A DNA stretch of 64,000 nt from Bryobacteraceae bacterium (GTDB taxonomy: Bacteria > Acidobacteriota > Terriglobia > Bryobacterales > Bryobacteraceae): NCBI GenBank assembly GCA_050010695.1, contig JBEKKO010000007.1, forward strand, positions 3,647 through 67,646. Direction: 5' to 3'. Below, piece by piece: positions 47,621 through 49,877 of the stretch. The translations under genes were made by a program, and so were the position numbers. Positions within the stretch are counted from its first letter, which is position 1. Every line of letters starts with the position of its first letter. A model generated the notes under the pieces. It did no database searches. It saw only the letters and a program-made list of their open reading frames with translations, and was not told the origin of the DNA.

Positions 47621-47803
47621 CTAGCTGGCGGCGGCAGCGGCCGCAGCCAACTGGCTATTGGTGGTTGTCCAAATCGTGTTGATCTTGCCACCAGCGCCGA
47701 TGAAGAGCGCGGCCGAGGCCAAAGCTACGAAAGCCAGCAACAGTGTGTATTCAATCAGGTCCTGGCCTTGTTCGTCGTTCCAAAGGTTACGCAGATACGT
47801 CAT
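47621..47803 (-). CDS. flp: Flp family type IVb pilin
   Basis: 60 aa. Leader plus G/QDLIEY processing motif and hydrophobic helix (MTYLRNLWNDEQGQDLIEYTLLLAFVALASAALF). GGAG 9 nt upstream of the ATG. Confidence 0.88.
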   Translation of the reverse strand: MTYLRNLWNDEQGQDLIEYTLLLAFVALASAALFIGAGGKINTIWTTTNSQLAAAAAAAS

Positions 47804-47822
47804 TTCGATTCGCTCCTATAGT

Positions 47823-47834
47823 CTTGAATTCAAG
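47823..47834. promoter_or_regulatory. Perfect 12-bp palindrome CTTGAATTCAAG between the membrane-protein gene and flp
   Basis: Overlaps the stop codon of the upstream gene (47830-47832). Centre is about 25 nt upstream of the flp ATG. Confidence 0.3.
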
Positions 47835-49491
47835 TCTCCGTGATCGCTCGATCACTGGTTAGTGTCTTCGTGACCTCTCGGTCACGGCCTGATCCGCCGC
47901 AGGTGGCGGCGGAAGTTCGATCCCCCAACGTCTGGCCGCGGGCCCGGAATAGGAGCGCCACGCCATCGTCATACACCACCCGCCACCGGCACGACTCCTT
48001 CAGGGCGCCGGTCAGCGGCGAGTTGGGGGGCATTAAAACCGTGTCCACTCCGAACCGGGCCAAGGTCTGCTCCCAGCCGTAGTTGACATTGAGAACGTCG
48101 AGCTGTTTGGTCTCGAAATCGTCCCCGTAGAAATCGCTTCGCCCGTCCACGAACACTCTGGACTGCGGATAGAGGCGGTAGATCAGATAGTCGCCCCATT
48201 GATCGTAAGTGAAGACCCGCGCCGCCGGATACCGCCCCAGCGCGCTCACGGCGCCGGCGGGATAATGCGCCGGATCGAATTCGGCCCGGAACGCCTTGGG
48301 CGGATTGGGCGCGTACAGCAACGCCGCCACCAGCGCCACGCCCGCCAGGCTCACCAGATGCCAGCGCCCGATGGCGTCGGTCTCGCTGGTTTCCCGGATC
48401 AGGCGATTGATGCGCACGGCTGCCTGCTGCAGCCAAGCCGCCAGCGGGGCTGCCGGCAGTCGCCGCAGGCCGGCGTCCGCGACGGCTGCCACCATGGGCG
48501 CCGCCACGATGGCGAAAATCGGAATATGGCGCGCCGCCACCAGCGCCAGGTGAGCCCACACCAAAAACAACAGCGGTTCGGTGTAGCTGCCGCGCCGCGC
48601 GTACCACGCCCCGGCGAGCACTCCACCCACCAGCAGGGTCTCGAAGAAGACCGCAACGGGCGAATGGAAACTCACCGAAAGGAATTCCATGATGTGGTCG
48701 GCCTGGAACGGATCGCGCAGATACTGCCATACGTGCATGTGCAGGTGGTAGGTGTATGGATTCAGCAAGCTTGCCGCCAGGCACGCCAGCGCGCTCAGGA
48801 AGTACTTTCCCGCGCGATTGAGACCCGCCGCGCGACCTTCGTTCCCGGCCGCCAGCAGAACCTGCAACAACTCCGCCGCGCCGAAGACCGAGATCATCAG
48901 CACGCCCACCAGAAATCCACCGTGCAGATTGGTCCACACCACCGTCAACACCGGCAGCAGCGCCAGCCACGGGATCCCCGCCATCCGCGTGTGCCCTTCC
49001 CGCACGCGATCAAGCGCGCTCAGGAAGATCACCGCGAACAACAGCGTGAACAGGTGTGGCCGCGCCAGCCAATGAACCGAAGACGCCGCCATCGCCAGGA
49101 TCGTCACCACCACCGCCAGAACCGCATTCGACTTGCGCCGCGCCAGGCGGAACAACAGCGTGAAGGTCACCGCCAGCAGCAGCACCGCGAACAACGAAAC
49201 CGCAGCCAGACCGCCGATCGAGTTGAGACCGGCGAAGATCACGTCCGACAGCCACTCCCACGCATACCAGACGCTGTCCGGCTTGGAATACGAGAACAAG
49301 TCCCGATACGGCACCGCGTGATGCTTTAGAATCCACTCGCCGGTGCGAATGTGCCAGCCCGTGTCGCAATCGCCCAGCAAAGTAACCAGCCCGTTCATAC
49401 GCCCAAACAACAACACCATCGGCATCAAGAACGCGATGTCCGCCAGCGAAGGCAGCAGCTTGACCGCAACTCTTGAATCAGCCGTGTCCAT
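47830..49491 (-). CDS. Polytopic GT-C-like membrane protein with a periplasmic C-terminal domain
   Basis: 553 aa counted from the ATG at 49491 (5 nt after the PilZ stop). Acidic D-x-D (GDCDTGWHIRTGE) after the first TM, about 10 or more TM segments, and a soluble C-terminus (YDQWGDYLIYRLYPQSRVFVDGRSDFYG). Family assignment is tentative. Confidence 0.6.
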   Translation of the reverse strand: MDTADSRVAVKLLPSLADIAFLMPMVLLFGRMNGLVTLLGDCDTGWHIRTGEWILKHHAVPYRDLFSYSKPDSVWYAWEWLSDVIFAGLNSIGGLAAVSLFAVLLLAVTFTLLFRLARRKSNAVLAVVVTILAMAASSVHWLARPHLFTLLFAVIFLSALDRVREGHTRMAGIPWLALLPVLTVVWTNLHGGFLVGVLMISVFGAAELLQVLLAAGNEGRAAGLNRAGKYFLSALACLAASLLNPYTYHLHMHVWQYLRDPFQADHIMEFLSVSFHSPVAVFFETLLVGGVLAGAWYARRGSYTEPLLFLVWAHLALVAARHIPIFAIVAAPMVAAVADAGLRRLPAAPLAAWLQQAAVRINRLIRETSETDAIGRWHLVSLAGVALVAALLYAPNPPKAFRAEFDPAHYPAGAVSALGRYPAARVFTYDQWGDYLIYRLYPQSRVFVDGRSDFYGDDFETKQLDVLNVNYGWEQTLARFGVDTVLMPPNSPLTGALKESCRWRVVYDDGVALLFRARGQTLGDRTSAATCGGSGRDREVTKTLTSDRAITET

Positions 49492-49496
49492 AAAAA

Positions 49497-49877
49497 TCAC
49501 GCCATCCAAGCCGGAGACTGTACATCCTCCGTCGCATGCAACCGGTCGTGAAATGCCCGAAAATCCATGTAATTGACCCTGAGCGCCACCAGCGGATACC
49601 CGCGCCCGGAGTCCGTCACCCGCACTACCGTTCCCTGGCAGTGAATGCACTTCTGCCCAAATCCGTGATTCGCCGGCAACTCCAGTTCGAGCGTCAGTAT
49701 CTGCCCCAGCGACGGCACCGGCAGCGTTTCGTCTCCCCCCTGCCACGTCACCAGGAGGCCGCTGCGACTGATGTTCTCGGTATACAAAGCGCTGCGCAGC
49801 CAAAGCGCCGGTGACGTGACATGGCACCGGAGTTGGATTTCAATCCGCGGGCTTTCGCGCCGGTTGATATTCCTCAT
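49497..49877 (-). CDS. PilZ domain protein (c-di-GMP receptor)
   Basis: Both PilZ signature motifs are present: RRESPR (RxxxR) and NISRSG (D/NxSxxG). 126 aa, single domain. Confidence 0.8.
   Translation of the reverse strand: MRNINRRESPRIEIQLRCHVTSPALWLRSALYTENISRSGLLVTWQGGDETLPVPSLGQILTLELELPANHGFGQKCIHCQGTVVRVTDSGRGYPLVALRVNYMDFRAFHDRLHATEDVQSPAWMA

What the first reader, a model, noticed from the sequence alone, without database searches (positions are those of the whole stretch)
47621..49877. Canonical PilZ and a 553-aa GT-C-like membrane protein sit immediately upstream of the Flp pilin gene
The PilZ protein carries both c-di-GMP-binding signatures (RRESPR and NISRSG). Its stop is 5 nt from the start of a polytopic membrane protein, and that protein's stop is only 26 nt from the flp ATG.

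The membrane protein has an acidic D-x-D (GDCDTGWHIRTGE) just after the first TM segment. It also has a periplasmic C-terminal domain containing QWGDYLIYRLYPQSRVFVDG. From memory, this aligns position-for-position with the WWDYG...VDG segment of PglB-type oligosaccharyltransferases, but with the motif scrambled.

Both Flp paralogues in the window end in Ser/Thr-rich tails (IWTTTNSQL..., IWSGTTTTLSTAGSVASGS) and neither has an N-x-S/T sequon. One hypothesis is a c-di-GMP-gated enzyme that modifies (O-glycosylates?) or otherwise handles the Flp pilin. Another is a PilZ-controlled polysaccharide step co-expressed with the pilus.
Basis: partly seen in the sequence, partly recalled or inferred. Interest (0 to 1): 0.7.

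Follow-up and report, generated by a model that had tools for sequence, protein, structure and literature searches.

The report
Tad-pilus-linked GT-C glycosyltransferase with PilZ partner
A c-di-GMP-sensor gene (PilZ) and an unannotated membrane glycosyltransferase-fold (GT-C) gene sit directly upstream of the Flp pilin gene of a Tad pilus operon. This enzyme family turns out to be linked to Tad pilus loci in many uncultured bacteria, which suggests an undescribed sugar modification of Tad pili.

Summary
On the minus strand lie pilZ (49497-49877), a 553-aa polytopic protein "X" (47830-49491) and flp (47621-47803). They head a complete Tad operon: cpaB, cpaC, tadZ, cpaF, tadB, tadC.

X matches no Pfam, NCBIfam or PDB sequence. 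A confident AlphaFold model (pLDDT 93) hits only GT-C glycosyltransferases: STT3, AglB, AftA, PglB and ArnT. Its conserved polar residues all face the periplasm.

The family is large, with more than 11,000 clusters (50% identity) at E<=1e-10. It is Tad-linked:
- 77 of 80 genome loci have flp immediately downstream of X.
- 21 of 53 distant relatives (<40% identity) still lie beside tad genes, in other gene orders.
- One relative is fused to a TPR domain inside a Tad locus.

Paralogues without tad genes sit next to small GT2 enzymes of the polyprenyl-phosphate-sugar synthase type.

The proposed WWDYG (PglB) alignment scores no better than chance, and there is no conserved N-x-S/T sequon.

Best reading: X is a lipid-linked-sugar-dependent GT-C dedicated to the Tad pilus, probably O-glycosylating the Flp tail, analogous to TfpW. 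The PilZ is canonical but confined to one clade, and its target (X or the Tad motor) is unresolved.

The parts
49497..49877 (-). pilZ: single-domain PilZ c-di-GMP receptor, 126 aa, first gene of the operon
   Evidence: Pfam PF07238 at E 2.7e-8, 34.5 bits against a cut-off of 22.5. RxxxR (R7, R11) and NxSxxG (N35, S37, G40) are present. In 58 orthologues R6, R7, R11, N35 and R38 are >=98% conserved. C18, C77 and C80 are also conserved.
47830..49491 (-). X: 553-aa GT-C-fold membrane protein. Predicted 11 TM helices, N-terminus in, C-terminus out, with a periplasmic C-terminal domain of about 135 aa. Alternative starts: GTG 49500 and TTG 49509.
   Evidence: No Pfam, NCBIfam or PDB sequence hit. 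AF2 model has pLDDT 93.4 and pTM 0.91. The top 25 Foldseek PDB hits are all GT-C enzymes. Family-invariant residues are G51, R144, P145, H190, E269, R321, P411, D449 and W503; D41, H47, D64, E79, H140 and H146 are near-invariant. Periplasmic loops are the most conserved regions.
47621..47803 (-). flp: Flp-type (type IVc) prepilin, 60 aa. Predicted cleavage G13|Q14 gives a mature pilin of 47 aa.
   Evidence: It has the G|xxxxEY motif, a hydrophobic helix and a position directly upstream of cpaB. 77 of 80 related loci carry a near-identical gene 21-90 nt after X. There is no Pfam Flp_Fap hit even at E 10.
47379..47620 (-). flp-cpaB spacer, 242 nt, strongly structured RNA. Putative attenuator or stabiliser downstream of the pilin gene.
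   Evidence: MFE -120.2 kcal/mol against -100.0 +/- 4.8 for shuffles, z = -4.2. The function is inferred.
46503..47378 (-). cpaB/rcpC
   Evidence: Pfam RcpC at 6e-26, plus SAF.
44934..46502 (-). cpaC/rcpA secretin
   Evidence: Pfam Secretin at 4e-45, T2SS-T3SS_pil_N and BON.
43742..44911 (-). tadZ/cpaE
   Evidence: Pfam AAA_31, CbiA and a receiver-like N-terminus.
42365..43726 (-). cpaF/tadA ATPase
   Evidence: Pfam T2SSE at 6e-60.
41393..42364 (-). tadB
   Evidence: Pfam T2SSF.
40446..41390 (-). tadC (314 aa as called in public assemblies)
   Evidence: Pfam T2SSF.
39271..40128 (-). Squalene-cyclase/prenyltransferase-repeat-like protein, a conserved tail gene of this Tad locus type
   Evidence: Pfam SQHop_cyclase_C at 4e-6. 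It holds the same position in loci of 63-65% identity. It recurs beside distant X relatives.
38296..39267 (-). DUF362 protein with a Tat signal and lipobox-like N-terminus, the conserved last gene of the locus
   Evidence: Pfam DUF362 at 7e-51. N-terminus reads MGEAITRRDWLAGSAAALMAAGC. Conserved position.
50361..51107 (+). Divergently transcribed LuxR/NarL-type response regulator, conserved upstream of pilZ
   Evidence: Pfam GerE and Response_reg. It holds the same position in L087, L088, L172 and L173.
19741..19914 (+). Second, orphan Flp paralogue (approximate coordinates)
   Evidence: tblastn with Flp gives 36% identity at E 1.6e-10. Motif AQDMVEY.

Best explanation
X is an uncharacterised GT-C-fold glycosyltransferase whose active site faces the periplasm. 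It most likely takes a sugar from a polyprenyl-phosphate carrier. That carrier would be charged on the cytoplasmic face by a small GT2 synthase encoded elsewhere in this genome, then flipped.

X belongs to a large family that is functionally tied to the Tad/Flp pilus. The most likely acceptor is the Flp pilin itself. Before assembly, Flp sits in the inner membrane with its 22-residue polar C-terminal tail in the periplasm. That tail carries S27, S/T33, S/T37 and a C-terminal Ser, and it later forms the pilus surface. X would O-glycosylate this tail, as the GT-C enzyme TfpW does for type IVa pilins.

PilZ is co-transcribed and probably translationally coupled. It binds c-di-GMP and ties pilus production or modification to the second messenger, either by acting on X or on the Tad motor.

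Shown here: the fold, the periplasmic placement of conserved residues, the family-wide Tad synteny, GT2 pairing of paralogues, and canonical PilZ motifs. Inferred: donor type, acceptor identity, O-linkage, and any PilZ-X contact.
For: Fold:
- AF2 model with pLDDT 93.4.
- The 25 best PDB matches are all GT-C: STT3 E 8.8e-7 with TMq 0.58, AglB 3.7e-6, AftA 2.8e-6, PglB 2.6e-4, ArnT 3.6e-4. A weaker first model gave the same families.

Active-site side:
- The D41-x-D43 motif lies just after TM1.
- All invariant polar residues lie in predicted periplasmic loops. Those loops are the most conserved parts (EL2 0.99, EL3 0.90-0.98), whereas cytoplasmic loops score 0.39-0.66.

Tad link:
- flp follows X in 77 of 80 genome loci at 43-85% identity, and 78 of 80 carry tad genes.
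- Among 53 distant relatives (<40% identity), 21 lie beside tad genes in other arrangements: tadC-X, flp-X-cpaB, convergent or divergent. For loci of at least 7 kb the count is 17 of 32.
- An X-TPR fusion sits after tadC in a Tad locus.
- Another relative sits in the order tadC-SQHop-DUF362-X'-TMEM260/PMT_2-like GT-C.

Donor:
- A 58%-identical paralogue without tad genes (L037), and relatives P0265, P0235 and P0242, directly abut 234-279-aa GT2 proteins.
- The best NCBIfam matches of those GT2 proteins are AglJ, Dol-P-hexose transferase, ArnC and PpgS, all below the curated cut-offs.
- 10 of 53 distant loci have such a GT2 nearby.
- This is two of the three components (GT2 synthase and GT-C; no GtrA-like flippase gene was seen) of the periplasmic glycosylation paradigm (PMC11127046).

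Acceptor plausibility:
- The Flp tail is 32% Ser+Thr. S27 is 89% conserved and the C-terminal residue is Ser in 36 of 47.
- The C-terminal polar patch forms the Tad filament surface (PMC10710030).
- TfpW sets a precedent for a pilin-adjacent GT-C (bioRxiv 10.1101/2020.04.19.049825).

PilZ.
Against: - No biochemical data exist, and no donor-synthase or flippase gene lies in the 64-kb window.
- Ser/Thr-rich tails also occur in Flp pilins of systems without X (own knowledge). The C. crescentus Tad pilus shows no glycan density (PMC10710030).
- No single Ser/Thr position of the Flp tail is invariant.
- Synteny shows only that X works with the Tad system, not that the pilin is the acceptor.
- PilZ is restricted to one clade. 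More distant X-flp loci have a degenerate PilZ, a prepilin peptidase or another gene upstream.
- X's cytoplasmic loops show no extra conservation in PilZ-linked loci.
- The fold assignment rests on a predicted structure. TM-scores of 0.45-0.58 indicate a shared fold, not family membership.
Confidence: 0.45

Rival explanations
1. X is a Tad-dedicated GT-C glycosyltransferase, but its acceptor is not the major pilin. Possible acceptors are another periplasmic Tad component (CpaB/RcpC, the secretin, minor pilins, a TadG-like protein), or an envelope glycan or adhesive polysaccharide deployed together with the pilus, in the manner of a holdfast.
For: - Synteny is with the whole tad locus, not only with flp. 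In distant relatives X follows tadC or lies convergent to it, without an adjacent flp.
- The X-TPR fusion replaces the usual TadD position.
- Conserved companions SQHop-like and DUF362 hint at a larger periplasmic module.
- Most GT-C enzymes paired with GT2 decorate glycans or lipids (PMC11127046).
- The C. crescentus Flp pilin is unglycosylated (PMC10710030).
Against: - In the 43-85% identity clade X is always the immediate neighbour of flp, with gaps of about 20-90 nt. This is the classic position of pilin-modifying enzymes.
- No polysaccharide export or polymerase genes lie in the operon.
Confidence: 0.3
2. PilZ does not regulate X. It is the c-di-GMP input to the Tad machine itself, acting on the CpaF ATPase or on TadZ. 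This would resemble the way PilZ-family proteins bind the PilB ATPase in type IVa pili. X would then be a constitutive modifying enzyme that merely shares the transcript.
For: - PilZ is present in only one clade of X-flp loci and is absent from the distant Tad-linked X relatives (0 of 53).
- X's cytoplasmic loops are the least conserved parts. The longest loop, CL5, is not specifically conserved in PilZ-linked loci: 0.49-0.54 against 0.43, tracking the overall difference of 0.62-0.66 against 0.59.
- PilZ is cytoplasmic, whereas X's conserved face is periplasmic.
- c-di-GMP control of Tad pilus dynamics is known in Caulobacter (PMC6581867).
Against: - The pilZ stop and the X start are 5 nt apart or overlap (GTGA). 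The gap is 1-25 nt in nearly all loci of the clade, which suggests coupled translation.
- Even the degenerate PilZ genes stay directly upstream of X rather than next to cpaF or tadZ.
Confidence: 0.4
3. X is a highly diverged oligosaccharyltransferase of the STT3/AglB/PglB lineage. It would be inherited with the archaeal-derived Tad system and would transfer a pyrophosphate-linked oligosaccharide en bloc to the pilin.
For: - The best fold matches are STT3, AglB and PglB.
- There is a D-x-D in EL1.
- The best local match of the C-domain HMM to PglB falls in the WWDYG-to-DGGK register: RLYPxxxVFxDGR against RYYSDVKTLIDGG.
- hhalign places X R321 one residue from PglB R375.
- Tad loci are thought to be of archaeal origin (PMC10710030).
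Against: - There is no Pfam STT3 hit at E<=0.1.
- hhalign against PglB gives probability 0.13.
- The C-domain score is matched by 552 of 2000 shuffles.
- WWDYG is absent; X has WGDY, and only Y435 is near-invariant across the family.
- An N-x-S/T sequon is absent from the window Flp and present in only 17 of 47 cognate Flps.
- Paralogues pair with small GT2 synthases typical of monophosphate-linked single-sugar donors.
- The periplasmic domain is about 135 aa, against about 280 aa in PglB.
Confidence: 0.05
4. X is a non-catalytic GT-C-fold membrane scaffold or assembly factor of the Tad platform.
For: It keeps a conserved position in the operon. A predicted-disordered but conserved C-terminal tail could be a docking peptide.
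Against: Invariant Asp, His, Arg and Glu residues are concentrated in short periplasmic loops, which resembles an active site. Paralogues outside Tad loci are coupled to GT2 enzymes.
Confidence: 0.08

Closest known systems
TfpW of Pseudomonas aeruginosa group IV strains (GT-C D-arabinofuranosyl transferase that O-glycosylates PilA)
   Same: It is a polytopic GT-C-type enzyme with periplasmic loop 1 and a large periplasmic C-terminal domain. It is encoded next to the pilin gene and acts on membrane-embedded pilin with a polyprenyl-phosphate-linked sugar (bioRxiv 10.1101/2020.04.19.049825). The arabinosyltransferase AftA is among X's best fold matches and has the highest sequence identity, 16%.
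   Different: TfpW serves type IVa pilins, which have a globular domain, and lies downstream of pilA. X precedes a 47-residue Flp pilin of a Tad (type IVc) system. No DprE1/E2 or other D-Araf genes were seen near X. Sequence relatedness to TfpW could not be tested here. TfpW has no PilZ partner.
STT3/AglB/PglB oligosaccharyltransferases (GT66)
   Same: They are the best structural matches (E about 1e-6, TMq 0.50-0.58). They share an acidic motif in the first external loop and a C-terminal periplasmic or lumenal domain. AglB glycosylates archaeal type IV pilins, the relatives of Tad pilins (own knowledge).
   Different: X shows no detectable sequence homology. It has no WWDYG motif, no conserved sequon on the presumed substrate, a much smaller C-terminal domain, and family context that points to monophosphate single-sugar donors.
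Three-component periplasmic glycosylation systems: GtrB-like GT2 synthase, flippase and GT-C (GtrC types, ArnC/ArnT, GT136)
   Same: Paralogues and distant relatives of X directly abut small GT2 enzymes whose closest named relatives are ArnC, Dol-P-hexose transferase, PpgS and AglJ. ArnT is a significant fold match. As with GT136, there is no sequence similarity to existing GT families (PMC11127046).
   Different: Those systems decorate O-antigen, lipid A or cell-wall glycans. The X subfamily is embedded in a pilus operon, has no GT2 or flippase gene nearby, and has a PilZ gene upstream.
Protein O-mannosyltransferases with TPR domains (PMT/TMTC/TMEM260-type GT-C)
   Same: They are GT-C enzymes that glycosylate Ser/Thr of proteins from a polyprenyl-P-sugar. 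One X relative carries a C-terminal TPR array (P0219). Another is adjacent to a TMEM260/PMT_2-like gene in a Tad locus.
   Different: X has no Pfam PMT, PMT_2 or TMEM260 match. Pmt1/2 is only a weak, partial fold match (E 0.17).
PilZ-regulated machines: BcsA and Alg44 (c-di-GMP-gated polysaccharide synthases), and PilZ-PilB in type IVa pili
   Same: X's partner is a canonical PilZ domain with RxxxR and [D/N]xSxxG, encoded with a glycosyltransferase and a pilus machine.
   Different: Known PilZ-gated glycosyltransferases are cytoplasm-facing GT-A (GT2) synthases. No PilZ-controlled GT-C, and no PilZ assigned to a Tad system, was found in the paper searches run here. The interaction partner of this PilZ is unknown.

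Membership tests
GT-C fold glycosyltransferase superfamily | Polytopic N-terminal membrane module (about 11-13 TM helices) with the conserved GT-C core architecture | tested here: met
   AF2 model with pLDDT 93.4 and pTM 0.91. All 25 top PDB matches are GT-C enzymes, E 9e-7 to 0.17, TMq up to 0.58. This rests on a predicted, not experimental, structure.
GT-C fold glycosyltransferase superfamily | Conserved acidic residue(s) in the first extracytoplasmic loop, and an active site on the periplasmic face | tested here: met
   D41-C-D43 follows TM1, and D41 is >=90% conserved in 113 sequences. Periplasmic loops are the most conserved regions. Topology follows the positive-inside rule.
GT-C fold glycosyltransferase superfamily | Uses a lipid-phosphate-linked sugar donor | not testable with these tools
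   Only contextual evidence: GT2 polyprenyl-P-sugar-synthase-like genes abut paralogues. None lies in the window.
Oligosaccharyltransferase STT3/AglB/PglB (GT66, Pfam PF02516) | Significant sequence or profile similarity to the family | tested here: not met
   No Pfam hit at E<=0.1, and none in 51 relatives. hhalign of the 113-sequence profile against C. lari PglB gives probability 0.13, E 0.45.
Oligosaccharyltransferase STT3/AglB/PglB (GT66, Pfam PF02516) | WWDYG motif in the C-terminal domain | tested here: not met
   X has Q-W-G-D-Y. The HMM of the X C-domain against the PglB C-domain scores -0.5 bits, reached by 552 of 2000 shuffles. Structural equivalence of the site could not be checked because no coordinates were available.
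Oligosaccharyltransferase STT3/AglB/PglB (GT66, Pfam PF02516) | Acceptor carries an N-x-S/T sequon | tested here: not met
   There is no sequon in either window Flp. Only 17 of 47 cognate Flps have one.
TfpW-type pilin GT-C glycosyltransferase | GT-C enzyme encoded adjacent to the pilin gene it modifies | tested here: met
   The gap between X and flp is 26 nt. Adjacency holds in 77 of 80 loci. Modification itself was not tested.
TfpW-type pilin GT-C glycosyltransferase | Sequence homology to TfpW/Emb (proline-rich motif) and dependence on D-Araf (DprE1/E2) genes | not tested
   No TfpW sequence was available in the tools. No arabinose-pathway genes were noticed in the annotated neighbourhoods.
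PglL/TfpO O-oligosaccharyltransferases (Wzy_C) | Wzy_C domain or O-antigen-ligase-like fold | tested here: not met
   No Pfam hit. No WaaL, PglL or Wzy structure appears among the fold matches.
PMT (GT39) and ArnT (GT83) | Match to the PMT, PMT_2 or ArnT family profiles | tested here: not met
   No Pfam hit. There is fold-level similarity only: ArnT E 3.6e-4, Pmt1/2 E 0.17.
PilZ domain c-di-GMP receptors (PF07238) | Domain match above the curated threshold, with RxxxR and [D/N]xSxxG motifs | tested here: met
   34.5 bits against a cut-off of 22.5. R7 and R11 are 100% conserved, N35 98%, S37 and G40 >=80% across 58 orthologues.
PilZ domain c-di-GMP receptors (PF07238) | Binds c-di-GMP | not testable with these tools
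   This needs a DRaCALA, ITC or MST assay.
Flp/Tad (type IVc) pilus system | Short prepilin with the G|xxxxEY motif, followed by cpaB-cpaC-tadZ-cpaF-tadB-tadC | tested here: met
   Motif and gene order were confirmed. However, the Pfam Flp_Fap profile does not match this pilin.

The most novel reading that the evidence does not exclude
The PilZ-X pair is a second-messenger-gated protein glycosylation switch. In this reading, c-di-GMP bound to the cytoplasmic PilZ controls a periplasm-acting GT-C enzyme that glycosylates Flp pilin subunits in the membrane. The surface chemistry of Tad pili (adhesiveness, phage or predator recognition) would then be rewritten according to the cell's sessile or motile state.

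This would be the first PilZ-regulated GT-C, the first dedicated Flp-pilin glycosyltransferase, and the founder of a new CAZy family with thousands of members.
Probability: 0.18. Interest if true: 0.85.

Novelty: new variant of a known kind. Interest (0 to 1): 0.62.

Why it matters
Tad/Flp pili are widespread adhesion and surface-sensing organelles. In the literature searched here, no enzyme dedicated to modifying the Flp pilin has been described.

This finding defines a large protein family that current databases do not annotate. It has more than 11,000 clusters (50% identity) at E<=1e-10 and no Pfam or NCBIfam model. The family has a GT-C glycosyltransferase fold and is repeatedly embedded in Tad loci, mostly of Acidobacteriota (a few records are labelled Gammaproteobacteria or Verrucomicrobiia).

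If X glycosylates Flp or another Tad component, several things follow:
- It would add a post-translational layer to Tad pilus biology.
- It would give Tad-locus annotation a new core accessory gene.
- It would probably found a new CAZy family.
- In the PilZ-linked clade, it would offer a tractable case of c-di-GMP input at a pilus operon.

The hypotheses can be tested directly with intact-mass analysis of a 47-residue peptide.

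Tried and rejected
- **Sequence-family assignment.** Pfam and NCBIfam scans of X and of 51 diverse relatives gave nothing. The only exceptions were a faint LA_3751/2 'putative glycosyltransferase' hit and TPR hits in one fusion protein. 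Profile searches of PDB sequences were also empty.
- **First structure model.** The model from 29 close homologues was poor (pLDDT 67). It was replaced by a 113-sequence model.
- **PglB/WWDYG homology.** I recovered the true C. lari PglB sequence from the PDB. hhalign and an HMM-versus-shuffle test of the C-terminal domains were both non-significant.
- **N-glycosylation.** Rejected because the sequon is missing or unconserved.
- **PglL/TfpO (Wzy_C) type.** Rejected because there is no profile or fold match.
- **X as the missing prepilin peptidase.** Rejected. The fold is GT-C and the conserved residues are periplasmic, whereas cleavage occurs on the cytoplasmic side. Related loci carry a normal A24-type peptidase next to X.
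- **Donor genes in the window.** A search for a Dpm1/GtrB-like GT2 found none.
- **PilZ docking site.** I looked for clade-specific conservation of cytoplasmic loops and found no signal.
- **Promoter and terminator scans.** Results were at chance level.
- **Literature.** Searches for a Tad-associated glycosyltransferase or a Tad-operon PilZ found no prior description.

Full report
**Observation**

- pilZ spans 49497-49877 (126 aa). It carries RRESPR (R7xxxR11) and NISRSG (N35xSxxG40), and it passes Pfam's PilZ threshold at 34.5 bits against 22.5.
- Five nucleotides after its TGA starts a 553-aa ORF, 'X', at 47830-49491. A GTG four bases into the pilZ stop, or a TTG giving the 559-aa public gene call P0001, are alternative starts.
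- The X stop is 26 nt from the ATG of a 60-aa Flp prepilin (47621-47803): MTYLRNLWNDEQG|QDLIEY...
- A second Flp paralogue lies at about 19741-19914 (+).
- Neither Flp has an N-x-S/T sequon.

**Context**

The three genes head a complete Tad operon with intergenic gaps of 0-26 nt. The exception is a 242-nt, strongly structured spacer after flp (z = -4.2).
- The order continues cpaB/rcpC, cpaC secretin, tadZ, cpaF, tadB, tadC.
- After a 317-nt gap come a squalene-cyclase-repeat-like protein and a Tat-signal DUF362 protein.
- A LuxR-type response regulator is transcribed divergently.
- The same 11-gene layout plus regulator recurs in loci whose X is only 63-65% identical.
- The organism is a Bryobacteraceae (Acidobacteriota) bacterium, judged from the names on near-identical proteins and loci.

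**What X is**

X matches no Pfam family (E<=0.1), no NCBIfam model apart from a faint 'LA_3751/2 putative glycosyltransferase' hit, and no PDB sequence.

It is nevertheless a member of a very large family:
- 4,316 hits among the 8,000 candidates scored in the word-indexed search.
- 20,970 50%-identity clusters at E<=1e-3, 11,362 at 1e-10 and 1,526 at 1e-30 in the exhaustive search.
- None of 51 diverse members has a Pfam or named NCBIfam match, apart from TPR repeats in one fusion.

Structure prediction gave a clear fold assignment:
- A first AlphaFold model from 29 close homologues was mediocre (pLDDT 67).
- A second model from 113 diverse sequences was confident (pLDDT 93.4, pTM 0.91).
- Foldseek against the PDB returned GT-C glycosyltransferases in every one of the 25 best places: yeast and human STT3 (E about 1e-6, TMq 0.52-0.58), AglB, AftA, PglB, ArnT, ALG9 and Pmt1/2.
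- The weaker model gave the same families.

The model and the positive-inside rule give 11 TM helices, N-terminus in and C-terminus out, with a periplasmic C-terminal domain of about 135 residues.

The family-invariant and near-invariant polar residues all fall in predicted periplasmic loops or the C-terminal domain. They are D41, H47, D64, E79, H140, R144, H146, N188, H190, N244, E269, R321, D449, R451 and D453. Those loops are the best-conserved parts (EL2 0.99, EL3 0.90-0.98), whereas cytoplasmic loops score 0.39-0.66. This is the anatomy of a periplasm-facing GT-C active site with the usual acidic motif (D41-x-D43) just after TM1.

**Link to the Tad pilus**

- A scan of one genome per species returned 589 relatives. 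The 80 best (43-85% identity) were fetched.
- tblastn with the window's proteins shows flp directly downstream of X in 77 of 80 and tad genes in 78 of 80. The X-flp gaps are mostly 20-90 nt.
- The set includes three loci labelled Gammaproteobacteria or Acidobacteriaceae, where a prepilin peptidase precedes X.
- A metagenome scan seeded with distant members gave 53 loci whose X-like gene is <40% identical to X. Of these, 21 have tad genes on the same short stretch; the count is 17 of 32 when the locus is at least 7 kb.
- Those distant loci use other arrangements: tadZ-cpaF-tadB-tadC-X, flp-X-cpaB-cpaC, or convergent with tadC.
- One relative (P0219, 917 aa) is an X-TPR fusion that JGI names 'TadD'. 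It sits right after tadC in a Tad locus.
- Another sits in the order tadC, SQHop-like, DUF362, X', TMEM260/PMT_2-like GT-C.

Tad linkage is therefore an old, family-wide property and not an accident of this genome.

**Donor**

Family members that are not in Tad loci are typically glued to a 234-279-aa GT2.
- The 58%-identical paralogue in L037 and the relatives P0265, P0235 and P0242 all follow this pattern.
- The best named relatives of those GT2 proteins are AglJ, Dol-P-hexose transferase, ArnC and PpgS. These are polyprenyl-phosphate-sugar synthases, though all matches fall below NCBIfam's curated cut-offs.
- Ten of the 53 distant loci have such a GT2 nearby.

This covers two of the three components (GT2 synthase and GT-C; no GtrA-like flippase gene was seen) of the established periplasmic glycosylation paradigm of GT2 synthase, flippase and GT-C (PMC11127046). 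It argues for a monophosphate-linked single-sugar donor. No such GT2 is encoded in the window itself, so the donor pathway for this X must lie elsewhere in the genome.

**Acceptor**

- The 47 distinct cognate Flps are nearly invariant through the hydrophobic helix: QDLIEYTLL[LM]AFVALASAALF.
- They carry a 22-residue polar tail (GGSIKGIW[ST]xTN[ST]QLxAAN..AS) that is 32% Ser+Thr.
- Ser27 is conserved in 89%, position 37 is Ser/Thr in 77%, and the C-terminal residue is Ser in 36 of 47.
- In the C. crescentus Tad pilus the C-terminal polar patch forms the filament surface (PMC10710030). A glycan there would decorate the pilus.
- Before assembly the tail is periplasmic while the helix is in the inner membrane, within reach of a membrane-embedded GT-C.
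- TfpW, a GT-C encoded next to pilA, O-arabinosylates P. aeruginosa pilins in this way (bioRxiv 10.1101/2020.04.19.049825).

This is inference, however. Ser/Thr-rich tails are common to Flp pilins generally (own knowledge). The Caulobacter pilus shows no glycan density (PMC10710030). Synteny cannot separate the pilin from other Tad-related acceptors.

**PglB comparison**

I recovered the authentic C. lari PglB sequence from the PDB and ran two tests.
- hhalign of the 113-sequence family profile against it gives probability 0.13. It aligns only one TM stretch, in which X R321 lands one residue from PglB R375.
The score is -0.5 bits, and 552 of 2000 shuffled sequences reach it.

Together with the missing sequon and the GT2 context, X should not be filed as an oligosaccharyltransferase. 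The resemblance is at fold level.

**PilZ**

- In the >=55%-identity clade a canonical PilZ lies 1-25 nt upstream of X in essentially every locus.
- Across 58 orthologues R6, R7, R11, N35 and R38 are >=98% conserved. So is a Cys triad: C18 100%, C77 >=80%, C80 97%.
- More distant X-flp loci have PilZ proteins with degenerate motifs (NLGRMG, NMSRGD), or no PilZ at all.
- None of the 53 distant relatives has one. PilZ is therefore a clade-specific addition.
- X's cytoplasmic loops are not specifically conserved in PilZ-linked loci. I find no sequence support for a PilZ-X interface.
- PilZ acting on the Tad motor, by analogy with PilZ-PilB, is at least as likely.

**Verdict**

- The PglB motif alignment is not supported.
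- The pilin-modification hypothesis is the best available mechanism, at about 45% confidence. The main rival is a different Tad-related acceptor, at about 30%.
- The PilZ target is open.
- The kind of system is known: pilin-adjacent GT-C enzymes and PilZ-controlled machines both exist.
- The variant is new: an unannotated, very large GT-C family dedicated to Tad loci, with a PilZ partner in one clade. I found no such description in the literature searched.

Noticed in passing
window 38296-40128 (-); also L085, L131, L158, L172, L173: A squalene-cyclase/prenyltransferase-repeat-like protein and a Tat-signal, lipobox-like DUF362 protein follow tadC as a conserved pair. The same pair turns up next to distant X-family genes in other gene orders: tadC-SQHop-DUF362-X'-TMEM260-like, X'-GT2-SQHop-DUF362, and flp-SQHop-X'-DUF362. 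They may belong to the same functional module. Their role is unknown.
   Followed up: partly
window 49497-49877 (-), PilZ residues C18, C77, C80: The PilZ orthologues conserve three cysteines, including a CxxC: C18 100%, C77 >=80%, C80 97% of 58 sequences. This suggests a metal or redox site that is not part of the standard PilZ description.
   Followed up: partly
window 47830-47904 (-), X residues 530-553: The C-terminal tail of X is predicted to be disordered (pLDDT <50). Even so, GRDREVTKT is invariant in the close clade, and the tail is far better conserved in PilZ-linked loci (0.54) than in PilZ-less ones (0.19). It could be a periplasmic docking peptide.
   Followed up: partly
window 26291-28462 (-): A second, unrelated GT-C-type protein lies here: 723 aa, with a weak Pfam PMT_2 hit plus an F5/8 type C domain. 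It is followed by a BadF/BcrA-type ATPase gene.
   Followed up: no
window ~19741-19914 (+): An orphan Flp paralogue (36% identical to the operon Flp, tail IWSGTTTTLSTAGSVASGS) sits between two ORFs with no Pfam match (18435-19406 and 20000-21436). These could be minor-pilin or TadG-like genes.
   Followed up: no
L169 8001-10754 (protein P0219): An X-family GT-C is fused to a long C-terminal TPR array (917 aa, named 'Flp pilus assembly protein TadD' by JGI). It lies after tadC in a Tad locus that also carries TadG, SLT and VWA genes.
   Followed up: partly
L027, L041, L144, L146: Two X genes in tandem between pilZ and flp in L027 and L041 (54-61% identical to the window X). L144 and L146 show a second X match by tblastn.
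   Followed up: no
window 47379-47620 (-): The 242-nt flp-cpaB spacer folds far better than shuffles (-120 against -100 kcal/mol, z = -4.2) and has no T-tract. It is probably a post-pilin attenuator or stabiliser.
   Followed up: partly
whole window; L068, L075, L080: No prepilin peptidase (TadV/CpaA) gene is detectable in the 64-kb window. In three distant loci it lies directly upstream of X, in the place PilZ occupies here.
   Followed up: partly
L116, L139, L149 (about 3900-4850): Several distant X relatives that lie convergent with tadC are preceded by an ORF that looks by eye like a CPBP/CAAX-type intramembrane protease. This was not checked with a profile.
   Followed up: no
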